From Candidatus Latescibacterota bacterium (lineage in GTDB: Bacteria; Latescibacterota; 4484-107), in contig JAZDJA010000184.1 of assembly GCA_043804415.1 (NCBI GenBank), positions 7,630 to 71,629 on the forward strand: a stretch of DNA of 64,000 bases, in the 5' to 3' direction. Below are positions 25,413-41,780 of this stretch, one piece after another (position 1 is the stretch's first letter; each line of letters starts with the position of its first letter). A program made the position numbers and the translations under genes. Below the pieces are notes generated by a model that saw only the letters and a list, made by a program, of their open reading frames with translations, made no database searches and was not told the DNA's origin.

Positions 25413-26473
25413 ATGAATGAACTCTCCTCCCGGGAACTCATGTGCCGGAGCATGCGTCGTATGCCCACGGATCGCATCCCCACCATGCCCCAGCTTTGCC
25501 AGGATACGCCCATCCGAATCTACCACGAAGACTGCGGGGATTGGATAGACAGAACGGCCCGGTGTCTGGAAGTGCCTTCCACTGCCCATGAGTATGTCAT
25601 CCGACTGGCCAAACAGATCCACTGCGATGGATTGCGGCTGTTTGTCCTTCCGGATCCCATGGAGGTGCGTCGTGTGGGAGACGACCTTTTTGGGGTCAGC
25701 CCTTCGGGAGAGAGGATGGGGAGAGTGGATCTTTTCGGCGGCGGACAACTGGTGCCGGACAGGCCGCATTCACCGATGAGAAACTGGAGCAGCTTCGATC
25801 TGCCCGAAATCGTGTTCCGAAAAAGTTCGTCGCGTCCAGTCCGAGCGGGATCACGATGAACACCTACAGCGTGTTGCGCGGAAGAGAACAGGCCATGATC
25901 GATTTCTTCGAGCGCCCGGATTTTGTGCGTGCGGCCATGGATCTGCAGGCGGAGGCCGCCATTCGCCTCGGAGAAAAGCTCATTCCCACGGGCATTGATG
26001 CGTTCTACATCGGCGATCCCGCTGCCAGTGGCAGCATCATTAGCCCCCGGCATTTTGAGGCTTTCTGCCTCGCGCCCTACCAGAAATTCTGTCGCCATTT
26101 CAAGGGCCGGGACATGCTACTTTATATCCACATCTGCGGGAACTCCAATCCGATTCTGGATATGCTGTCGGATACGGGCGCTGATGCCGTGGAGCCGCTG
26201 GATCCCTTGGGCGGCGTTTCCGTGGCCGATGCGAAATCGCGCATCGGGGAGAAAGTGGCGCTTATGGGAGGGGTCAACACGCTCACCCTCTCCCGGGGCA
26301 CTCCGGCCCAGGTGCGCGCAGAGGCGATCCAAAAGTGCCGGGAAGGCGGCCCTTCCGGGTACATCCTGGCGGCAGGGGATATGGTACCCCCGGATACCTC
26401 TCTGGAGAACTTACAGGCTCTGGTGGATGTCAGCACCCAGAGCCTCTGGAAAACGGATGCAAGCGCCCTGTAA
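25413..26473 (+). pseudogene. URO-D-superfamily protein, disrupted by a -1 frameshift near 25856 and sited about 10 bp downstream of the IS200 end
   Basis: the N-terminal part (25413..25859) and C-terminal part (25856..26473) together align to the intact paralog 20987..22114; there is no RBS before ATG 25413. Confidence 0.6.
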
Positions 26474-29131: not shown

Positions 29132-31171
29132 ATGACCACCCATTCCGCATCGAAAATGGCCCCCCGCAAACCGCTCCGCTATCATCTGAGATACCAGCTC
29201 ATCCCTGGGAAGGATCTTGAGCAGAATACCCACGATCTGGTGGATTTCTGCACGGAGCACGGTGTGGAGGAGGTCGTGCTGTTTTTTGCAGCCGAAGAAT
29301 GGAACAACGGGCTGCTGTCCGGCCAGGATGAGGACATCTGGTATGATACCATCCGCACGGCGAAAGAAATTCTGGGGGCATCCGGCGTAGTCGTGAGTCT
29401 GAATCCCTGGATGACTGTGCTGCACGTCGACAGGGGCCGCACGCTCCCCGAGGATCGAAATATGAAACCCATGGTGTCGCCTTTGGGAGAGGTGAGCAAA
29501 GCTTGCGCCTCATTCGCCGATCCGGGATGGCAACGCTATATCTTCGGCCTCTATGGTCGCTTTGCGCAATTGGGTTTTCGGGTAATCTGGGTGGAGGACG
29601 ATTTTCGATATCACAACCACGGACCGTTGACCTGGGGCGGGGGTTTCGAACCCGAGGTGCTGGCGATCTTTTCACAGAAGGTGGGACGATCTGTCCGTCG
29701 GGAAGAGGTGGTAGCCAACATCCTTCGTACCGGCGAACCGCATCCCTGGCGGGAACTGTGGATGGATACCTGGAGAGAGATCCAGCTTGACGTGGCCCGC
29801 GGGATAGCCCACGCGGTGACCGAGCACTCCCCCGGAGAGACCCGGCTTGGACTGATGAGTTCCCTTCCCAGTGTGCATAGCGTGGAGGGACGTCGTTGGA
29901 AAGAGCTCTTTGATGCGTTGACCCTGGACAACCACGTGGTTCATCGGCCCCACTACGCAGGGTACAGCGATTCGGTTGGGAAGCAGGCGACCTATTCCAT
30001 CATGATGCTGGATATCCAGCGGAGTTTGAGGCCCTCCGGCTGCGAGGTAGCCCCGGAGGTGGAGAACTGGCCCTTCACGCACTGGAACAAATCCGACACC
30101 CAGACATGGACTGAAATGGCGCTCGACATGTTCTACGGATCCGACGCACTGCTGCTGGACCTGTTCCCCTTTTCTGGAAATTCTCCGAGCACAGAACCTC
30201 GGATCGGTACGATGCTGGATCGCTCCCGTCCGGCTCTGGAGTGGATATCCGAGCGCTTTCCGAAGACGTTTGAAACGCGCGGCGTGGGTATCCCCTGGAA
30301 GGAAGACGCCCAGGCTCATGTGCGCACGACAGAAGGGAAAGCCATGGGGGAGCTTAACGCGGCCTCCTTCGGACCGGGCACCTTGCTTTTGTCCTATGGA
30401 GCGCCCGTATCTGCAAGCGCCCAGAAAGTGAATGCACTTTTCGGCACCCTCGCCTGGGCCTTTGACGATGGGGAAATCCGCCGAATGCTTTCCGGAGGAC
30501 TGCTGCTTGACGGAGAAAGCGCCGATATCCTCTGTCAGCGAGGTTTCGGGTCGGATATGGGAGTGGACTTTGACGGATGGTTGGGCAGAGAAGGAAGCAC
30601 CTACTCCGTTGAGGAGATCGTGTCTGAGCACGCCGGTGTCCAGAAGGGGCTTTACTTCAGCGCAAACTCACCTTCCAGAATGGGCCTATTGAACCCGATC
30701 CATGGCGCAGAAGCGTGGACGTCCATCCTGACTCCAGAGGGGGCGCGCGTGGGCGCAGGGATCGTGGCCCATGAGAATCGGATGGGGGGACGGGTGGTAA
30801 CGTATGCCATGCCCACTCCCGCTGAATTGCCCCCGAGCACGCTGAGGCAAAAGGTCGTCCATTCCGTCGTCGCTTTTCTATCCAGGGAAGAATTCGACTC
30901 TCCTATGATCAGCGGCGGGGCTCACCTTATGCCTATGCACTTTCAGGGAGATGGGAAGAATTTTGTTGTGGTCCTCAACGGATCGCCGGACGCCGCCTTC
31001 CCGGTCGCTCGGATCCCCTGCGTCGAGGTGAGTCTTCGGTCGGCCACCTTGCTGGCCCCGCTGCAAGAGCCCGCGGAGATCGCCGTGGACGTTCAGCAGG
31101 AGAAGGGGCAGCTGATCGTGACCTGCGAGAATCCGGTTCCCTACATGGGATTTCTTGTGCTGGAATGGTAG
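29132..31171 (+). CDS. large hypothetical protein, possibly glycoside-hydrolase-like TIM-barrel
   Basis: 679-aa ORF with coding-like composition; no family confidently recognised. Confidence 0.45.
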   Translation: MTTHSASKMAPRKPLRYHLRYQLIPGKDLEQNTHDLVDFCTEHGVEEVVLFFAAEEWNNGLLSGQDEDIWYDTIRTAKEILGASGVVVSLNPWMTVLHVDRGRTLPEDRNMKPMVSPLGEVSKACASFADPGWQRYIFGLYGRFAQLGFRVIWVEDDFRYHNHGPLTWGGGFEPEVLAIFSQKVGRSVRREEVVANILRTGEPHPWRELWMDTWREIQLDVARGIAHAVTEHSPGETRLGLMSSLPSVHSVEGRRWKELFDALTLDNHVVHRPHYAGYSDSVGKQATYSIMMLDIQRSLRPSGCEVAPEVENWPFTHWNKSDTQTWTEMALDMFYGSDALLLDLFPFSGNSPSTEPRIGTMLDRSRPALEWISERFPKTFETRGVGIPWKEDAQAHVRTTEGKAMGELNAASFGPGTLLLSYGAPVSASAQKVNALFGTLAWAFDDGEIRRMLSGGLLLDGESADILCQRGFGSDMGVDFDGWLGREGSTYSVEEIVSEHAGVQKGLYFSANSPSRMGLLNPIHGAEAWTSILTPEGARVGAGIVAHENRMGGRVVTYAMPTPAELPPSTLRQKVVHSVVAFLSREEFDSPMISGGAHLMPMHFQGDGKNFVVVLNGSPDAAFPVARIPCVEVSLRSATLLAPLQEPAEIAVDVQQEKGQLIVTCENPVPYMGFLVLEW

Positions 31172-31204: not shown

Positions 31205-31915
31205 ATAGCCATTGTACGCCAGAAGTGCATTTTCTCGTTCCCACGCAGGCGTGTGGGAACTTCGGCATGTCGCTCCGCGTCTGTTAAGGAGTCCGATGCC
31301 AGGAAGCCACTACAGAATCTGTGAGCATTACCTGCTCCATTTCTGACGCACACAATCGTCAACAACCTGTCCTGTGTCGCAAGCCCACTCCTCGCCCAGA
31401 TCATGCTCGATCTATGGCGGCTATTGCATGAATCCCAGTGTTTGGCAATCAATGCCTACGTAATCACGAGAGATCATCTGCACATGAGGGTCTCATTGAA
31501 ACACTCAGATTTTCTCGTTCCCACGCTCTGCGTGGGAAAGTCGGCATGACGCTCCGCGTCTCTAAGGAGTCAAAGGACCAAGAAGCCACTTCAACATCTA
31601 TGTGGAGACAAACGCTCGGCATCTCCTCCGGCCATTGACGCTCCACATGCTGCAACACAAGAAGGAAAGGGCCCATAGGTTCTGGCAAGAGGGGGTCACA
31701 CACAGTTGATTCGGACCGAAGATGGGATGCGCCAGAAAGTAGCGTATATCCACAACACCCCTGCAGGAAGGGGCTACATGGATGATCCGACGCTTGGGCG
31801 GCATTCGAGTGCGAAGGACCATGTGGGCCAATCTGGTTCATTGGAGGCGACTTCCGCCTGGTGACGCAGAGCGTCGGGGCGGTGCGTTCCCACGCAGGAG
31901 CGTGGGAACGAGATG
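31205..31915 (+). mobile_element. degenerate REP-associated tyrosine transposase (RAYT / IS200-like TnpA_REP) remnant flanked by REP-like hairpins
   Basis: HUH motif ...NAYVITRDHLHMRV... at about 31450-31500; RFWQEG at about 31689-31706; frameshift; Y-motif VAYIHNTPAGRGYMDDP at about 31735-31790; palindromes GTTCCCACGC-N3-4-GCGTGGGAAC at 31237-31260, 31516-31537 (inside the gene) and 31886-31909 (inverted); about 150 bp internal duplication (31211-31365 vs 31498-31660). Confidence 0.6.
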
Positions 31916-31951
31916 ATTTGTATGGTTCTTCTTAGGAGGAGGTCATAACTT

Positions 31952-32752
31952 ATGAACCCCGCCCAGAAGTGCTCCGTAATCATCGCGATCACGAATAACA
32001 GGAAGGATCTCCAGATCGCCCGGGAGGAGCACTGGTATCGCATTCCCGTCAAGAGTGCACCCAAACGTCTGAAAGAGGCGACCTATCTGGCGTTCTATCA
32101 GACAAAGGAGTTCGGCGAGGACAAATGGGCGGTGCGCTATTACGCGGAAATTCGGAGCAAGCGTATTCTCCGGCGCATCGAGCTATTCCCCGACGAACCC
32201 TATCACCCCAGAGCCAATGAGGAATACTACAAAATAGAACTCGGCGACCTCCAGACGCGCGGCGAACCTATCCTCAGCCGAAAAGGGCGGCGCATCGCCT
32301 TCATCTCCACGACTTGGGAGAAGTTTCAGCGGGCCGGAGAGATCAACGATCTGTTCGACGAGAGTCCCTTGGAGGATGAGATGTGGGCGGCTTTCAAGCA
32401 GGACAAAATCGAGACGGAGCGGCAATATTATGTTCTAATAGCGGATGTAAACTACTACCTGGACTTTGCTGTCTTCTGTCAGAAAGGCCGCATTGACGTG
32501 GAATGCAACGGAGATACGTGGCACAGCGCGAAGGAACAAATCCCAAGAGATAACGCCAGGGATAACTCCCTGACCAGCGGAGGATGGGCTGTCCTGCGTT
32601 TTTCGACACCGGCGATTCGTGAGGACATGCTGGATTGCCTGAGCAAGGTAAAGCATACGATCAACAAGTTGGGCGGATTGGCCACGGCGGATGGGGAGAC
32701 CCTACATTTCACGGACGATGAATCCCAGTTGGATCTATTTGAGGAAAGATAA
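31952..32752 (+). CDS. hypothetical protein with a C-terminal DUF559 (Vsr-like, PD-(D/E)xK-type) endonuclease domain and an uncharacterised ~150-aa N-terminal domain
   Basis: RBS TAGGAGGAGG; C-terminal ...YYLDFAVFCQKGRIDVECNGDTWHS...GWAVLRF... matches the DUF559 pattern. Confidence 0.65.
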   Translation: MNPAQKCSVIIAITNNRKDLQIAREEHWYRIPVKSAPKRLKEATYLAFYQTKEFGEDKWAVRYYAEIRSKRILRRIELFPDEPYHPRANEEYYKIELGDLQTRGEPILSRKGRRIAFISTTWEKFQRAGEINDLFDESPLEDEMWAAFKQDKIETERQYYVLIADVNYYLDFAVFCQKGRIDVECNGDTWHSAKEQIPRDNARDNSLTSGGWAVLRFSTPAIREDMLDCLSKVKHTINKLGGLATADGETLHFTDDESQLDLFEER

Positions 32753-33015
32753 CCCTTCCCTCTCACCTCAGAGATCGCAGAGTACGCGGAACATGGGACA
32801 GAGGGCTCCTTGCGTCAAGTTTCACGTCTAGTGTTTGCACAGTTACGAGAACGAATGTCAAATGTCGGACAAACGATTCGATCTTCTCCTGCACAGCGTG
32901 GCTGGTACCGGCGCGGCCATGCACAGGAATTCATCTCTTTCCCGACGATTTGGCCGGGAAAGAGATGGACGCGACGGGAAATCGGACAGTCCAAAATAGA
33001 ATCATGAGAATTGCC

Positions 33016-36508: not shown

Positions 36509-36562
36509 CGGGAGATGCTCGTTTCCTTCTTTCCGATGCTATCGTTTCGATTGGAGAAACCC

Positions 36563-37651
36563 ATGACTGGTTTGGAAAGGGTATTGACCGCGCTTGGGCG
36601 GGGCGAGCCCGACCGGGTTCCGGTGTGGGAGTTGATCGTAAATGAACCGGTGATCCACGAGCTCTATGGGGATGTTTCCTATTGGGACTTTGTGGAGCGG
36701 CTGGACCTGGATGGGCTTACGATCTTCGAGGATCAACGGGTCGTCGCGTGGATCAACCAGGACACCTACCGGGACGAGTGGGGCATCGTCTGGAAGATAG
36801 CGCCCAACGGGATCGCGTATCCGTCCGGGGGACCGATCCGGGAGGAGCGGGATCTGGACCGGTATGCGCCGCCGGATCCCGATGCGGATCACCGGCTCCG
36901 ATCCCTGGAAGCCGCCGCAAAGCGGTTCAAGGGAGAGAAAGCCCTGGTGTTTCTCGGTCACGAGACCTTTGAGTTTTGCCATTATCTGCTGGGCGGAATG
37001 GATAAGCTCTTCCTGAACTACGTGCTCAATCCCGCGTTTGTGGATCGGCTCTCGGAGATGATCTGGACCTATAAGAGCCGGGTGCTGGCCCGCGCGGCCG
37101 AGGTCGGAGCGGACATCCTCCTGACCGGGGATGATTACGCTTCCAGAAATGGCACCTTGATGTCACCCACGCACTTCGAGCGTTTTGTGCTGCCCTATCT
37201 GACCCGCGCGGTGGCGGTGGCTCACGCCCACAAACGTCCCTTCATCAAACACACGGACGGCAATTTGTGGAAAGTGATGGACATGCTGGTGGGCACGGGC
37301 CTGAATGGACTCGATCCCATCGAGCCGATGGCGGGGATGGACATCGGAGCGGTCAAGGCCCAATATGGAGATCGCATCGCAGTGATCGGAAATGTGGACT
37401 GCACGGAGATTCTGCCTCACGGTTCCAGGCAGGACGTGGTCGATGCGGTGAAAGAGACCCTCGCCAAGGCCTCGGTCGGAGGCGGACACATCCTGGCATC
37501 GAGCAACAGCATCCATCCCGGCGTCAATCCGGAGAACTACCGGACGATGGTGCAAGCAGCGCGAGAGTTTGGCGTCTATCCTTTGGATCCGAAGATGGTG
37601 GAGACGTATCGCACACAGGATTATATGGCAAAATGGGTGCATGAAACGTGA
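36563..37651 (+). CDS. URO-D-superfamily protein (third copy in the window)
   Basis: MTGLERVLTALGRGEPDRVPVWEL... start typical of the family; ...DGNLWKVMD... core. Confidence 0.7.
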   Translation: MTGLERVLTALGRGEPDRVPVWELIVNEPVIHELYGDVSYWDFVERLDLDGLTIFEDQRVVAWINQDTYRDEWGIVWKIAPNGIAYPSGGPIREERDLDRYAPPDPDADHRLRSLEAAAKRFKGEKALVFLGHETFEFCHYLLGGMDKLFLNYVLNPAFVDRLSEMIWTYKSRVLARAAEVGADILLTGDDYASRNGTLMSPTHFERFVLPYLTRAVAVAHAHKRPFIKHTDGNLWKVMDMLVGTGLNGLDPIEPMAGMDIGAVKAQYGDRIAVIGNVDCTEILPHGSRQDVVDAVKETLAKASVGGGHILASSNSIHPGVNPENYRTMVQAAREFGVYPLDPKMVETYRTQDYMAKWVHET

Positions 37652-39873: not shown

Positions 39874-41643
39874 CTAGGCCTCTTTGCTCAGCAGGATAAG
39901 CTTCTCATACAACACGCCTACAAGGGCATCGTTGCCCTGCTGCTCCGCTTCCTTCAGATGGAGGCGGATGGCCTCGATGGCACGGCGCGCATTCTCTTTC
40001 CGAAGTTGAGCGATGCTGTCGGAGAGGGATTGATCGATCTGTTTTTCGTCGAAACCCTCCGAGGCCAGCCGCGAGATCACCCCCACGAGATCCGATCCCT
40101 GGAACCGATCCATCAGACTTCCCACATCGGATTTCCCTTCGCCCGTAACCATCTCGGCCATCCCCGCTGCAATCTGCCGAAACGGCCCCTCCTGAAAATC
40201 CTCCATGCGAATCAGACTGATGACCCGCACCGCGATATCGCCGCCGGAGAGCATGATCCGCACCAGCTCGCGTTCTGCTGAGGATCCCTGACGCAGGACA
40301 ATCCCCTTCTCGTTGGTCTCCCCGCCTTTCCCGCGGGTTTCTCCGCGCCCTTTCCGCCGCTCCCGCCTGATCGCCCGATGCAGCACCTCCTCGCCTATTC
40401 CAAGACGTTCGGAAACTTGCTGGGTCAGCAGGTTGCGTCGGATCTCGTCTCCAATCTTGGAGAGGGTCTGGATAAACTCCTCGATGCTTCGGCGTCTGCC
40501 CTCTACGGTGGCCAGATCCAGGGAACGGCTCATCTGATCCAGTTTATAGTCCAAGAGCGGCTGCGCATCCCGCAAGAGCTTCAGGAAAGGCTCCGGGCCC
40601 GCATCGCGCACAAAACTGTCCGGATCGTGCCCCTCGGGAAGGGCGATCACCCGGACCTCCAGATCCGCTTCCAGCAGGATGTCTATTCCACGCAGCGTGG
40701 CGGTGGATCCGGCCTGATCCGCGTCGAACACCAACACCACCCGGTCGCCGTACCGAGCAAGCAGTTTGGCCTGCTCCGGGGTGAAGGCCGTGCCGGATGA
40801 GGCCACCACATATTCGATTCCGCATTGCACCAGACGCAACAGATCGGTATACCCCTCCACGATGAGGGCCTGGCCCGCCTTCCGGATGGCATCTTTCGCC
40901 TGGCAGAGACCATAGAGAATGTGCCCCTTACGATAGATGGGGGTCTCGGGGGAATTCAGGTATTTGGGCTGGCCTTCCGGGTCCAGCGTACGCGCTCCGA
41001 ACGCCACCGGACGCCCTCCAATGTTGGTGATCGGGAACATCAGCCGGTCTCGGAACCGGTCGTAGTGCCCTCCCTTGGGCTTGGCAACGGCCAATCCCGC
41101 CTTCTCAAATGCAGCACCATCCAGGCCCCTTTTTGCGCCCACCTTCAGCAGTCCATCCCAATCCGGTGCCGCCACTCCCAATCCGAATCGCTCCGCAGTC
41201 TCTTGGGAGATCGCCCGCTCCGAAAGATAAGCTCGGGCCACCCTGCCGCTCGCATCCTTCCACAAAAGATGCTGGAAATATTTCTGCGCCAGATCGTTCG
41301 CCCGGTAGAGCGCATCGCTCACTTCGCCGGATGCGGGTCCGGAACGCTCCTCCGGCAGCAGGATTCCCGCCTTGGCGGCCACCAGCCGGACCGCTTCCAG
41401 GAAGCTGATCTTTTCCACGTCCCGGAGGAAGGTGAACACGTTTCCTCCCGCGCCACATCCGAAGCAGTGGAATATCTGTTTCTCCACATTGACGCTGAAT
41501 GAAGGGGTCTTCTCCACGTGAAAAGGGCAGAGACCAAAATAGTTCTGCCCTTTCTTCTTCAGCGCCACATAGTCGGAAACCACGTCTGCTATATTGACTT
41601 GCGCGCGAATGTCTTCGATCGTTTCTTCGGGAACACGGGCCAT
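39874..41643 (-). CDS. dnaG: DNA primase
   Basis: zinc-ribbon CPFHVEKTPSFSV...CFGCGAGG and TOPRIM EGYTDLL...VLVFDADQAG motifs. Confidence 0.9.
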   Translation of the reverse strand: MARVPEETIEDIRAQVNIADVVSDYVALKKKGQNYFGLCPFHVEKTPSFSVNVEKQIFHCFGCGAGGNVFTFLRDVEKISFLEAVRLVAAKAGILLPEERSGPASGEVSDALYRANDLAQKYFQHLLWKDASGRVARAYLSERAISQETAERFGLGVAAPDWDGLLKVGAKRGLDGAAFEKAGLAVAKPKGGHYDRFRDRLMFPITNIGGRPVAFGARTLDPEGQPKYLNSPETPIYRKGHILYGLCQAKDAIRKAGQALIVEGYTDLLRLVQCGIEYVVASSGTAFTPEQAKLLARYGDRVVLVFDADQAGSTATLRGIDILLEADLEVRVIALPEGHDPDSFVRDAGPEPFLKLLRDAQPLLDYKLDQMSRSLDLATVEGRRRSIEEFIQTLSKIGDEIRRNLLTQQVSERLGIGEEVLHRAIRRERRKGRGETRGKGGETNEKGIVLRQGSSAERELVRIMLSGGDIAVRVISLIRMEDFQEGPFRQIAAGMAEMVTGEGKSDVGSLMDRFQGSDLVGVISRLASEGFDEKQIDQSLSDSIAQLRKENARRAIEAIRLHLKEAEQQGNDALVGVLYEKLILLSKEA

Positions 41644-41780
41644 CTTGTCCTGCCTTGGAGGCATAGCGGCATGGGGACGCTAAGAAATGAAAAATGCAGC
41701 ATGGAAAATGACTTCGCCACTCACCCTCTCGGACTCCAATAGTTGCACTTTACAATCTGCATTTCTTGGGGTCTTCGTGG

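What the first reader, a model, noticed from the sequence alone, without database searches (positions are those of the whole stretch)
31952..32752. Fusion of an uncharacterised N-terminal domain to a DUF559 (Vsr-like) endonuclease domain next to mobile-element debris
DUF559 is usually a stand-alone ~120-aa PD-(D/E)xK-like nuclease module. Here it follows a ~150-aa domain rich in conserved aromatics (HWYRIPV, YLAFYQTKEFG, WAVRYYAEI, YYKIELGDL), reminiscent of PUA-like/EVE/ASCH modified-base reader folds. Reader plus nuclease fusions are the hallmark of modification-dependent (type IV) restriction enzymes. The position beside the RAYT fossil, at an island edge, fits a defence gene.
Basis: inference. 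Interest (0 to 1): 0.55.

Follow-up and report, generated by a model that had tools for sequence, protein, structure and literature searches.

The report
Clamp-tethered base-reader plus Vsr-like repair nuclease
This gene encodes a widespread but unstudied enzyme that joins a base-reading domain to a DNA-nicking domain and ends in a tail predicted to dock onto the replication sliding clamp, so it looks more like a new DNA-repair nuclease than the anti-phage restriction enzyme first proposed.

Summary
ORF 31952-32752 (+) encodes a 266-aa protein with an intact DUF559/MTES_1575 (Vsr-fold) nuclease. In front of it sits a ~130-aa domain that no Pfam, NCBIfam, PADLOC or PDB-sequence model recognises.

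The type IV restriction reading is only partly supported. The family covers about 1100 clusters at 50% identity and 469 species. It is a stand-alone chromosomal gene in housekeeping contexts, with no conserved partner and no full-length phage or plasmid copies.

- A disordered C-terminal tail carries QLDLF, the beta-sliding-clamp-binding consensus. It is present in 49-61 of 80 species against 0.07 expected by chance, and its flanks are only 18% identical.
- The same reader domain, with the same invariant core, is fused to the UV-damage endonuclease UvsE/UvdE in at least 74 Chloroflexota clusters. There the Vsr domain is deleted or matches only weakly, with substituted core residues in the members read.

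Best reading, at about 50% confidence: a clamp-recruited, lesion- or modified-base-reading 5'-incision repair nickase. The ligand is unknown and no biochemistry exists.

The parts
31952..32752 (+). Complete ORF (266 aa plus stop): reader, linker, Vsr-like nuclease and clamp-binding tail
   Evidence: The identical protein is annotated at NCBI as 'DUF559 domain-containing protein [Candidatus Latescibacterota bacterium]'.
31935..31943 (+). Shine-Dalgarno-like AGGAGGAGG, 9-17 nt upstream of the ATG
   Evidence: Read directly from the sequence.
31964..32338 (+). N-terminal PUA-like (ASCH/YTH-like) domain, aa 5-129. Invariant core: D19, W28-Y29-R30-I31-P32, F48-Y49-x-T51, R75, Y92, R113-R114, F117-I118-x-T120-T121.
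   Evidence: No sequence-family hit. AF2 pLDDT 93. Foldseek TMq 0.60-0.62 to ZmASCH and S. marinus McrB NTD. ASCH proteins in BFVD. The invariant core is shared with the UvsE fusions.
32339..32377 (+). Inter-domain linker EINDLFDESPLED (aa 130-142), the most conserved stretch of the protein
   Evidence: 84% mean pairwise identity across 80 species, against 52-55% for the two domains. Modelled with high confidence (pLDDT 92-96 in the 10-residue blocks spanning aa 121-150) and partly helical (H131-134, H139-150). Retained in UvsE fusions that have lost the nuclease.
32378..32680 (+). DUF559/MTES_1575 Vsr-fold nuclease domain (aa 143-243) with intact core: D171, E184, N186, D188, H191, D200, R203
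   Evidence: Pfam above gathering scores. Family profile vs 3hrl E 3.8e-9 and vs 3r3p E 5e-4. Foldseek 3hrl TMt 0.76. Invariant columns.
32681..32749 (+). C-terminal tail (aa 244-266): fast-evolving throughout, and predicted disordered at its distal end (pLDDT <50 for aa 258-266)
   Evidence: pLDDT <50 for aa 258-266. 18-19% pairwise identity on either side of the motif.
32726..32740 (+). QLDLF (aa 259-263): predicted beta-sliding-clamp (DnaN) binding motif
   Evidence: Matches the consensus Q-L-x-L-F, which typically lies at C-termini (PMC4549789). Strict motif in 71/120 homologs and 49/80 species (61/80 relaxed), against 0.07 expected in shuffled tails and 0 in the folded bodies. With tails anchored on the relaxed motif, whose regex requires Q, allows only L/M/F/I at positions 2 and 4 and F/W/L/Y at position 5, L/L/F are 92-93% and D/E follows in 72%.
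31236..31910 (.). Context, not part of the gene: three REP-like palindromes CGTTCCCACGC-N3-4-GCGTGGGAACG (31236-31260, 31516-31539, 31885-31910), a roughly 280-bp duplicated unit, and a frameshifted RAYT remnant (about 31590-31850, +)
   Evidence: The same palindrome occurs at other intergenic sites in relatives L089 and L090.
32862..32966 (+). Context: 5' remnant of dprA (35 codons) between the gene and queA
   Evidence: 54% identity to the N-terminus of the DprA that follows the 76%-identical homolog in L089, E 2e-4. dprA also directly follows the 83%-identical homolog in L090.

Best explanation
The gene encodes a chromosomal DNA-repair incision nuclease with three parts. (1) An N-terminal PUA-like (ASCH/YTH-like) domain inspects DNA, probably by flipping a damaged, mismatched or modified nucleotide into an aromatic and basic pocket. 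(2) A rigidly coupled Vsr-fold (DUF559) domain nicks the strand next to the recognised site. Vsr and UvdE both cut on the 5' side of the mismatch or lesion, leaving a nick that Pol I and ligase-type resynthesis can process. (3) A disordered C-terminal QLDLF peptide docks the enzyme onto the beta sliding clamp, which would concentrate it on newly replicated or repair-synthesis DNA. This resembles how EndoMS/NucS, MutS/MutL and the translesion polymerases are recruited. Shown here: the domain folds, the intact nuclease core, the motif and its selective conservation, the stand-alone housekeeping context, and re-use of the same reader domain by the repair enzyme UvsE/UvdE. Inferred: base flipping, nicking polarity, actual clamp binding, and the identity of the ligand. 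The UvsE link and the bias towards Chloroflexota, Cyanobacteria, Armatimonadota and phototroph lineages make UV or other bulky and oxidative lesions a reasonable first guess.
For: Folds: full-length model pLDDT 91.4, pTM 0.84. The C-domain matches 3hrl with TMt 0.76 and profile E 3.8e-9. The N-domain has TMq 0.60-0.62 to ASCH and McrB-NTD. Catalytic core invariant. Clamp motif: QLDLF lies in the segment with pLDDT <50. The strict motif is in 49/80 species, against 0.07 expected (maximum 2 in 1000 shuffles), and never in the folded body. It is retained across Chloroflexota, Armatimonadota, Proteobacteria, Planctomycetota, Cyanobacteria and Firmicutes. Motif columns are 69% identical against 18-19% for the flanks. 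The consensus and its usual C-terminal location are documented in PMC4549789, and the precedent of a clamp-dependent repair nuclease in PMC6159521. Repair link: all 74 UvsE/UvdE homologs of at least 450 aa among the best 120 hits carry this N-domain (E about 1e-50 to 1e-60). 41 have no detectable Vsr domain, and 33 have only a weak or partial C-domain match; the core motif is substituted in the members whose sequences were read. The N-domain's invariant core is the same in both architectures, with 48% identity between the sets. Other rare fusions are to RadC and HRDC. Context: no neighbour family recurs in more than 5 of about 85 loci. About a dozen annotated contexts are mostly housekeeping. 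In this lineage the gene is linked to dprA, recQ and queA. No phage record matches and no plasmid match is full-length. A chromosomal, MTase-unlinked, SOS-induced DUF559 nuclease (Caulobacter VsrA) is a published precedent (PMC12907096).
Against: There is no biochemical or genetic evidence for any family member. PUA-like similarity is at fold level only (Foldseek E about 2.5e-3, 10-12% identity), and I had no access to model coordinates, so a binding pocket could not be inspected. The clamp motif is missing or degenerate in about a quarter of species, including a thermophile clade with truncated tails, in two thirds of the more distant cluster representatives with a complete C-domain, and in all UvsE fusions shown, so it is not essential to the module. 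Clamp-binding motifs also occur in transposases (PMC4549789), so the motif alone does not prove repair. The distribution is patchy (469 of 185,579 species), which is more typical of accessory than of core repair genes. A few contexts include RM or Abi genes or an integrase within a few kb. The shuffle control does not correct for shared ancestry of the tails.
Confidence: 0.5

Rival explanations
1. Type IV (modification-dependent) restriction enzyme. The PUA-like domain reads a modified base in invading DNA and the Vsr-like domain cuts it. The clamp tail might direct it to replicating foreign DNA.
For: The closest folds include the McrB N-domain. The phyletic distribution is patchy. RM or Abi genes lie within a few kb in 2 of about 12 contexts.
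Against: No defence-island signal or conserved partner (and the context calls). PADLOC gives only weak partial hits to the shared DUF559 module. The reader domain evolves slowly. The same reader domain is recruited by the housekeeping repair nuclease UvsE. Vsr-fold enzymes are single-strand nickases, which make poor restriction enzymes on their own (established knowledge of Vsr). The family is absent from phage records and from plasmids as a full-length protein.
Confidence: 0.18
2. The N-domain is itself an enzyme rather than a passive reader. ASCH proteins include N4-acylcytosine amidohydrolases and an RNase. The protein would then be a bifunctional enzyme acting on an RNA-containing or acylated substrate, for example embedded ribonucleotides, primers or R-loops at the fork, with the clamp tail as in RNase HII.
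For: The best structural matches are ASCH proteins. ZmASCH is an ssRNA-specific ribonuclease (PMC5615036), and other ASCH proteins hydrolyse N4-acylcytosines (PMC11037411). Polar residues D19, T51, S109, T120 and T121 are invariant alongside the aromatics.
Against: No sequence match to any ASCH model. Known ASCH catalytic motifs could not be mapped. The fusions are to DNA nucleases (Vsr, UvdE), not RNA enzymes.
Confidence: 0.1
3. Selfish or homing-type endonuclease, or a toxin-like nuclease, that uses the clamp as many transposases do, and arrived here together with REP/RAYT activity.
For: The family profile matches the catalytic domain of the homing endonuclease I-Bth0305I (3r3p, E 5e-4) and, weakly, a PADLOC 'HEase' model. 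Clamp motifs occur in transposases (PMC4549789). RAYT and REP debris lies immediately upstream. An integrase lies nearby in one context.
Against: No intron, intein or IS structure surrounds the gene. Each of the 80 species-level loci kept held a single match; whole genomes were not scanned. Synteny with queA and dprA is kept in relatives. The REP palindrome is dispersed independently of the gene. No antitoxin-like neighbour recurs.
Confidence: 0.05
4. Canonical very-short-patch repair: a Vsr orthologue that fixes T:G mismatches from 5mC deamination, with the N-domain as an accessory.
For: Vsr-fold domain with an intact core. JGI pipelines name homologs 'very-short-patch-repair endonuclease'. 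Vsr-like genes unlinked to an MTase exist (PMC12907096).
Against: No cytosine-5 methyltransferase neighbour in the window or in about 85 loci. The match is to DUF559/MTES_1575, not to Vsr proper. The conserved extra reader domain and clamp tail are absent from canonical Vsr (established knowledge). The UvsE fusions imply the reader domain is not specific to T:G.
Confidence: 0.08

Closest known systems
Vsr / DUF559 (MTES_1575) endonucleases, e.g. E. coli Vsr, N. gonorrhoeae NGO0050 (3hrl), Caulobacter VsrA
   Same: Same catalytic fold and core residues. Like Caulobacter VsrA, it is chromosomal and not linked to a methyltransferase (PMC12907096).
   Different: Carries a conserved ~130-aa PUA-like N-domain, an ultra-conserved linker and a clamp-binding tail. 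No link to 5mC methylation was found.
EndoMS/NucS (clamp-activated mismatch endonuclease)
   Same: Works alike on paper: about 250 aa, an N-terminal DNA-recognition domain, a C-terminal PD-(D/E)xK-superfamily nuclease, and a C-terminal clamp-binding peptide essential for in vivo function (PMC6159521).
   Different: No sequence or fold similarity was detected; NucS is absent from the Foldseek top 50. The nuclease is Vsr-type rather than RecB-type and the N-domain is PUA-like. Not a family member.
PUA-superfamily modification-dependent restriction enzymes (EVE-HNH VcaM4I/TspA15I, YTH-McrB, SRA-HNH)
   Same: N-terminal PUA-like reader followed by a C-terminal nuclease. A base-flipping reader is expected (PMC6765204, PMC7897488, PMC11037411).
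   Different: The nuclease is a Vsr-type nickase.
UvdE/UvsE UV-damage endonuclease (alternative excision repair)
   Same: A Chloroflexota UvsE clade carries the same reader domain at its C-terminus. Both UvdE and Vsr-type enzymes incise 5' of the recognised site (established knowledge).
   Different: The window protein has no TIM-barrel UvdE domain. Its nuclease is the Vsr-like domain, which is deleted or matches only weakly in the UvsE fusions.
ASCH-domain proteins (ZmASCH 5gus, AF2351 2kku, E. coli YqfB)
   Same: Best structural matches to the N-domain (TMq 0.56-0.62; BFVD ASCH hits).
   Different: 10-12% identity and no HMM match. Known ASCH activities (RNase, N4-acylcytosine amidohydrolase) are unrelated to DNA incision.

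Membership tests
DUF559 / MTES_1575 (Vsr-fold PD-(D/E)xK nucleases) | Pfam HMM match above the gathering score | tested here: met
   PF18741 40.9 bits (cut-off 38.2). PF04480 35.0 bits (cut-off 20.6).
DUF559 / MTES_1575 (Vsr-fold PD-(D/E)xK nucleases) | Vsr-like fold | tested here: met
   Foldseek top hit 3hrl, TMt 0.76, rmsd 3.3. Family profile vs 3hrl E 3.8e-9.
DUF559 / MTES_1575 (Vsr-fold PD-(D/E)xK nucleases) | Conserved acidic/His catalytic core (D ... E-x-[DN]-G-D-x-x-H ... D-x-x-R) | tested here: met
   D171, E184, H191, D200 and R203 are invariant in 39 sequences and align to the same residues of 3hrl.
Canonical Vsr (very-short-patch repair) | Genetic linkage to a cytosine-5 DNA methyltransferase | tested here: not met
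   No MTase within +-10 kb in the window. No recurrent neighbour in about 85 loci.
Canonical Vsr (very-short-patch repair) | T:G mismatch-specific nicking | not testable with these tools
   Needs enzymology.
PUA-like superfamily (ASCH / YTH / EVE readers) | PUA-like beta-barrel fold | tested here: met
   N-domain model pLDDT 93. TMq 0.60-0.62 to ZmASCH and SmaMcrB-NTD, 0.40-0.46 to YTH. Nearly all of the top 50 hits are PUA-like. BFVD ASCH hits at E 2e-4 to 5e-4. The E-values are modest.
PUA-like superfamily (ASCH / YTH / EVE readers) | Sequence-profile membership in a named family (PF04266 ASCH, PF04146 YTH, PF01878 EVE) | tested here: not met
   No hit at E <= 10 for any of 23 N-domains or for the full protein. 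No PDB sequence hit.
PUA-like superfamily (ASCH / YTH / EVE readers) | Aromatic or basic pocket that accepts a flipped base | tested here: inconclusive
Type IV modification-dependent restriction enzymes | Modified-base reader domain fused to a nuclease | tested here: met
Type IV modification-dependent restriction enzymes | Defence-island or mobile-element context, or a match to defence-system models | tested here: not met
   Mostly housekeeping contexts. No recurrent neighbour. PADLOC gives only weak partial DUF559 hits. No phage match and no full-length plasmid match.
Type IV modification-dependent restriction enzymes | Modification-dependent cleavage and phage restriction | not testable with these tools
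   Needs experiments.
Beta-sliding-clamp-binding proteins (QLxLF clamp-binding motif) | Pentapeptide matching Q-L-x-L-F | tested here: met
   QLDLF at aa 259-263. The consensus is given in PMC4549789.
Beta-sliding-clamp-binding proteins (QLxLF clamp-binding motif) | Motif lies in an accessible, disordered terminus | tested here: met
   pLDDT <50 for aa 258-266. A median of 6 residues follow the motif, and 11 of 61 tails end exactly at the motif.
Beta-sliding-clamp-binding proteins (QLxLF clamp-binding motif) | Motif conserved while the flanking tail diverges | tested here: met
   69% vs 18-19% identity. 49/80 strict vs 0.07 expected. Seen across six or more phyla.
Beta-sliding-clamp-binding proteins (QLxLF clamp-binding motif) | Physical binding to DnaN | not testable with these tools
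   Needs pull-down, ITC or a co-structure. No multimer prediction tool was available.
EndoMS/NucS | NucS N-terminal domain plus RecB-like nuclease | tested here: not met
   No NucS among PDB sequence hits or the Foldseek top 50. The analogy is functional only.

The most novel reading that the evidence does not exclude
The 'WYRIP' PUA-like domain defines a previously unrecognised bacterial damage- or modified-base-sensing module. It serves two unrelated 5'-incision nucleases: a Vsr-like one as here, and UvsE/UvdE in Chloroflexota. The stand-alone form would then be a beta-clamp-coupled incision-repair enzyme, a base-lesion counterpart of the clamp-dependent mismatch nuclease EndoMS/NucS. That would amount to a new replication-coupled alternative excision repair pathway in several hundred, mostly uncultured, bacterial species.
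Probability: 0.4. Interest if true: 0.8.

Novelty: new variant of a known kind. Interest (0 to 1): 0.62.

Why it matters
Reader-nuclease fusions are usually filed as type IV restriction enzymes. This family shows the same architecture apparently used for genome maintenance. Three things would follow if this is confirmed. First, it would add a clamp-recruited incision nuclease to the short list of replication-coupled repair nucleases (MutL, NucS, RNase HII). Second, it would define a new PUA-like DNA-lesion or base-sensing domain that current domain databases do not model. Third, it would explain a C-terminal extension found in a large Chloroflexota UvsE clade. In practice, it warns against reading 'PUA-like + nuclease' automatically as defence. 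It also offers a compact (266-aa) candidate lesion- or modification-directed nickase for biotechnology.

Tried and rejected
1. Sequence-level assignment of the N-domain found nothing in Pfam, NCBIfam, PADLOC, PDB sequences, or a Pfam scan of 23 N-domains at E <= 10.
2. I looked for a conserved genomic partner (methyltransferase, GTPase, antitoxin) by clustering neighbour ORFs over about 85 loci. None occurs in more than 5 loci.
3. An AP_endonuc_2 TIM-barrel gene lies 1-2 genes downstream in three lineages, which looked suggestive given the UvdE fusions. The three proteins are barely related to each other and are absent from the other loci, so I rejected this as coincidence within a huge metabolic family.
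4. I tested for insertion polymorphism using relatives of the upstream 679-aa neighbour. Synteny is already lost at 53-64% identity, so the test was uninformative.
5. I searched for archaeal-type PIP boxes in tails lacking QLxLF. One tail (L037) matched the loose PIP-like regex, but the match lies well upstream of its C-terminus and I read it as chance. Many tails carry degenerate variants such as QPSLF, QYTLF and KLNLF.
6. An apparent second dprA hit at 57.7 kb is only the HhH motif of UvrC.
7. Pfam did not detect the RAYT remnant. NCBIfam and tblastn did.
8. The promoter and terminator scan gave nothing on the + strand near the gene.
9. GC content of the gene (0.52-0.56) is only slightly below its flanks (0.57-0.63), which is not convincing evidence of foreign origin.
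10. A coordinate slip (motif taken as aa 258-262) was corrected (aa 259-263).
Full report
**1. The observation**

The + strand ORF 31952-32752 (ATG start, 266 aa) is preceded by AGGAGGAGG 9-17 nt upstream. Pfam places MTES_1575 (aa 166-235, 40.9 bits, cut-off 38.2) and DUF559 (aa 140-236, 35.0 bits, cut-off 20.6) in the C-terminal half. The first ~139 residues match nothing in Pfam, NCBIfam, PADLOC or PDB sequences. The identical protein is in NCBI as 'DUF559 domain-containing protein [Candidatus Latescibacterota bacterium]'.

**2. The fusion is a real, large, conserved family**

A search of 5.8 billion proteins gave 1574 hits. The best 120 are nearly all full length (about 245-320 aa) at 50-83% identity. 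A scan of one genome per GTDB species found 469 species. Chloroflexota dominate, and the list also includes Armatimonadota/Abditibacteriaceae, Zixibacteria, Ignavibacteria, Thiomargarita/Beggiatoa, Competibacteraceae, Pirellulales, Chloracidobacterium, a cyanobacterium (Argonema), Heliobacteriaceae, Poribacteria and WOR-3.

An exhaustive HMM search with the N-domain alone (alignment A2) found 1115 cluster representatives at 50% identity with E <= 1e-3. Across 80 species, mean pairwise identity is as follows:

| Region | Residues | Mean pairwise identity |
|---|---|---|
| N-domain | 8-129 | 55% |
| Linker EINDLFxESPLED | 130-142 | 84% |
| Nuclease domain | 143-243 | 52% |
| Tail before the motif | 244-258 | 18% |
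| Motif | 259-263 | 69% |
| Residues after the motif | 264-266 | 19% |

**3. Structure**

AlphaFold2 on a 39-sequence alignment gave pLDDT 91.4 and pTM 0.84. Only residues 1-4 and 258-266 fall below pLDDT 50. Foldseek against the PDB matched the C-domain to NGO0050 (3hrl, a DUF559 protein, TMt 0.76). It matched the N-domain only to PUA-like readers: YTH domains, ZmASCH and the N-terminal domain of Staphylothermus marinus McrB.

Modelled alone (pLDDT 93.1), the N-domain gave these TM-scores normalised to the query:
- 0.60-0.62 to ZmASCH (5gus, 5y6c) and SmaMcrB-NTD (6n0s)
- 0.56 to AF2351
- 0.40-0.46 to YTH domains

In the viral library the best named hits are ASCH proteins, at E 2e-4 to 5e-4. 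E-values against the PDB are modest (2.5e-3 or weaker) and identity is 10-12%. I therefore call this PUA-like at fold level, not a member of ASCH, YTH or EVE. The sequence-level tests for those families were negative.

The family profile matches 3hrl at E 3.8e-9 and the catalytic domain of the homing endonuclease I-Bth0305I (3r3p) at E 5e-4. D171, E184, H191, D200 and R203 are invariant. The nuclease therefore looks active.

**4.

Most homologs end in a variable, disordered tail that contains Q-L-x-L-F. In the window this is QLDLF, aa 259-263, nt 32726-32740.
- The strict motif is present in 71 of 120 homologs (87 with a relaxed pattern).
- It is present in 49 of 80 species-level sequences (61 relaxed).
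- Composition-matched shuffles of the same tails give 0.07 strict matches per 80 tails, with a maximum of 2 in 1000 shuffles. The folded bodies contain none. This control does not correct for shared ancestry.
- I anchored the tails on the relaxed motif, whose regex requires Q, allows only L/M/F/I at positions 2 and 4, and allows only F/W/L/Y at position 5. Within those limits L is 92%, x is S/G/T, L is 93% and F is 92%. An acidic residue follows in 72% of tails.
- Tails without the motif often carry degenerate versions such as QPSLF, QYTLF and KLNLF. A thermophile clade has simply lost the tail.

Q-L-x-L-F at a C-terminus is the documented beta-sliding-clamp-binding consensus, and it is also found in transposases (PMC4549789). 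A C-terminal clamp motif is essential for the repair nuclease EndoMS/NucS in vivo (PMC6159521). Binding itself was not tested here.

**5. Context**

In the window the gene sits between a sugar-metabolism block and core genes. The upstream block holds BNR, an apiosidase-like gene, RraA-like, URO-D-like, MFS, an HpcH aldolase and a 679-aa unknown. Downstream are queA, ispD, glyQS and further on dnaG. No methyltransferase, defence gene or integrase lies within +-10 kb.

About a dozen Pfam-annotated homolog contexts are mostly housekeeping: ribosomal proteins, the mur/ftsW cluster, accA/D, comEC, nadA and uvrB. RM or Abi genes or an integrase lie a few kb away in three of them. Clustering of neighbour ORFs over about 85 loci found no family in more than 5 loci. 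The protein has no match in 50,697 phage records, and plasmid matches cover only the DUF559 part. Those collections are biased towards cultured hosts.

In the two closest relatives (83% and 76% identity) the gene lies just upstream of dprA: directly adjacent in L090, and with one small 79-aa ORF between them in L089. In L089 the order is recQ, two small ORFs, the gene, a small ORF, dprA, an N6/N4 MTase, a BglII-like gene, queA. The window keeps queA and a 35-codon 5' remnant of dprA at 32862-32966. The locus is therefore ancestral in this lineage and has suffered a deletion. It is not a recent insertion.

**6. The 'mobile-element debris'**

The 780-bp upstream spacer holds three REP-like palindromes and a roughly 280-bp duplicated unit. 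It also holds a frameshifted remnant that hits NCBIfam 'REP-associated tyrosine transposase' (E 2.4e-6). That remnant is 43.6% identical (E 5e-15) to a protein that is itself a clear RAYT (E 2.7e-26). The RAYT fossil is therefore confirmed. However, the same palindrome occurs at unrelated intergenic sites in the relatives' contigs. It is a dispersed, lineage-wide REP family and says little about the function of the gene.

**7. The decisive comparative result: the reader domain is shared with UvsE/UvdE**

Among longer proteins carrying the N-domain, I found fusions to UvdE, RadC, HRDC, SAM methyltransferases, HEAT repeats and DUF3800, as well as tandem N-N-C forms.

Following up the UvdE fusion, 74 of the best 120 clusters are at least 450 aa long. 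Where sources give a name, they call these 'UV DNA damage repair endonuclease UvsE' from Anaerolineae, Chloroflexi or Caldilineales, and they sit on contigs of up to 254 kb. All 74 carry the N-domain C-terminal to UvdE, at E about 1e-50 to 1e-60.
- In 41 of them the Vsr-like domain is gone.
- In 33 the C-domain HMM matches only weakly or partially. In the ~14 of these whose sequences I read, the DVECDG core motif is substituted (for example VAVACSG, VVILCGE), so E184 is lost; I did not tabulate the catalytic columns across all 33.

The residues that are at least 90% conserved are the same in both architectures: D19, W28-Y29-R30-I31-P32, A47-F48-Y49-x-T51, F54, R75, Y92, R113-R114, F117-I118-x-T120-T121. 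Identity between the two sets is 48%. A module kept this strictly while attached to a bona fide DNA-damage endonuclease is unlikely to be a sensor of phage-specific modifications. It more plausibly recognises damaged or aberrant DNA, or otherwise targets incision nucleases to chromosomal substrates.

**8. Interpretation**

Best-supported model, at about 0.5 confidence: a clamp-recruited repair nickase. The PUA-like domain inspects and probably flips a nucleotide. The rigidly coupled Vsr-like domain incises beside it. The QLxLF tail concentrates the enzyme on clamp-bearing DNA, meaning newly replicated or repair-synthesis DNA.

Established here:
- the folds
- the intact nuclease core
- the selectively conserved motif
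- the context
- the sharing of the reader domain with UvsE

Inferred:
- base flipping
- incision polarity
- clamp binding
- the ligand

Rivals and their confidences:
- type IV restriction, 0.18
- an enzymatic ASCH-like N-domain or an RNA-related substrate, 0.10
- canonical VSP repair, 0.08
- a selfish or homing nuclease, 0.05

Points against my model:
- the phyletic distribution is patchy
- the motif is absent from about a quarter of species and from the UvsE fusions
- clamp motifs also occur in transposases
- there are no experimental data

**9. Novelty**

Reader-nuclease fusions, Vsr-like repair nickases and clamp-tethered nucleases are each known. PUA-Vsr fusions were mentioned once as uninvestigated (PMC6765204). 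I found no paper that links DUF559 with the clamp or UvdE/UvsE with PUA, ASCH or YTH. No domain model covers the N-domain.

I rate this a new variant of a known kind, with interest 0.62. It would become considerably more interesting if clamp binding and lesion-directed nicking were shown.

Noticed in passing
window 31236-31910: Three REP-like palindromes CGTTCCCACGC-N3-4-GCGTGGGAACG, a roughly 280-bp duplicated unit, and a frameshifted RAYT (REP-associated tyrosine transposase) remnant at about 31590-31850. The same palindrome occurs in relatives' contigs (L089 2743-2772, L090 2099-2132) at other intergenic sites, so it is a lineage-wide REP family in these Latescibacterota.
   Followed up: yes
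window 32862-32966 (+): A 35-codon 5' remnant of dprA lies between the gene and queA. Relatives have an intact dprA there, and one of them also has a type II RM pair. This implies a deletion in this genome. No intact dprA is present in the 64-kb window.
   Followed up: yes
P0127, P0271-P0342 (Chloroflexota proteins, not in the window): A large clade of UvsE/UvdE UV-damage endonucleases carries this same reader domain as a C-terminal extension, with the Vsr-like domain deleted or matching only weakly. This UvsE architecture appears to be undescribed.
   Followed up: yes
P0139, P0262, P0158, P0185, P0160/P0100/P0106, P0144, P0095/P0121: Other rare architectures of the module: +RadC(JAB), +HRDC, +SAM-methyltransferase, MTase-HIT-N, +HEAT repeats, N+DUF3800, and tandem N-N-C. 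It was not checked whether each is a true fusion or a gene-calling artefact.
   Followed up: partly
window 32339-32377 (aa 130-142): The inter-domain linker EINDLFxESPLED is the most conserved segment (84% identity). It is kept even in UvsE fusions that have lost the nuclease domain, which suggests a function of its own, such as DNA contact or a domain-coupling hinge.
   Followed up: partly
window 29132-31171 (+): A 679-aa ORF with no Pfam hit at E <= 1. It is conserved (53-64% identity) on a few metagenome contigs (L092-L095) and sits at the end of a sugar-utilisation cluster. Function unknown.
   Followed up: partly
L006, L010, L021, P0033, P0036, P0050, P0063 (hot-spring 'Bacterium HR' clade): A thermophile subclade has a truncated C-terminus ending shortly after GGLLRA and lacks the QLxLF tail altogether. 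This is a natural 'tail-less' comparison group.
   Followed up: no
window 57669-59639 (-) and 39874-41664 (-): uvrC (a GIY-YIG/HhH protein of 656 aa, identified only by eye and by an HhH match) and dnaG primase are on the same contig. The genome therefore appears to hold at least part of the classical UvrABC pathway alongside this gene.
   Followed up: no
window 25856-26473 and 36515-37651 (+): Two URO-D-family (uroporphyrinogen decarboxylase-like) paralogs lie on either side of the locus. The first covers only the C-terminal half of the profile and may be truncated, or its start may be miscalled.
   Followed up: no
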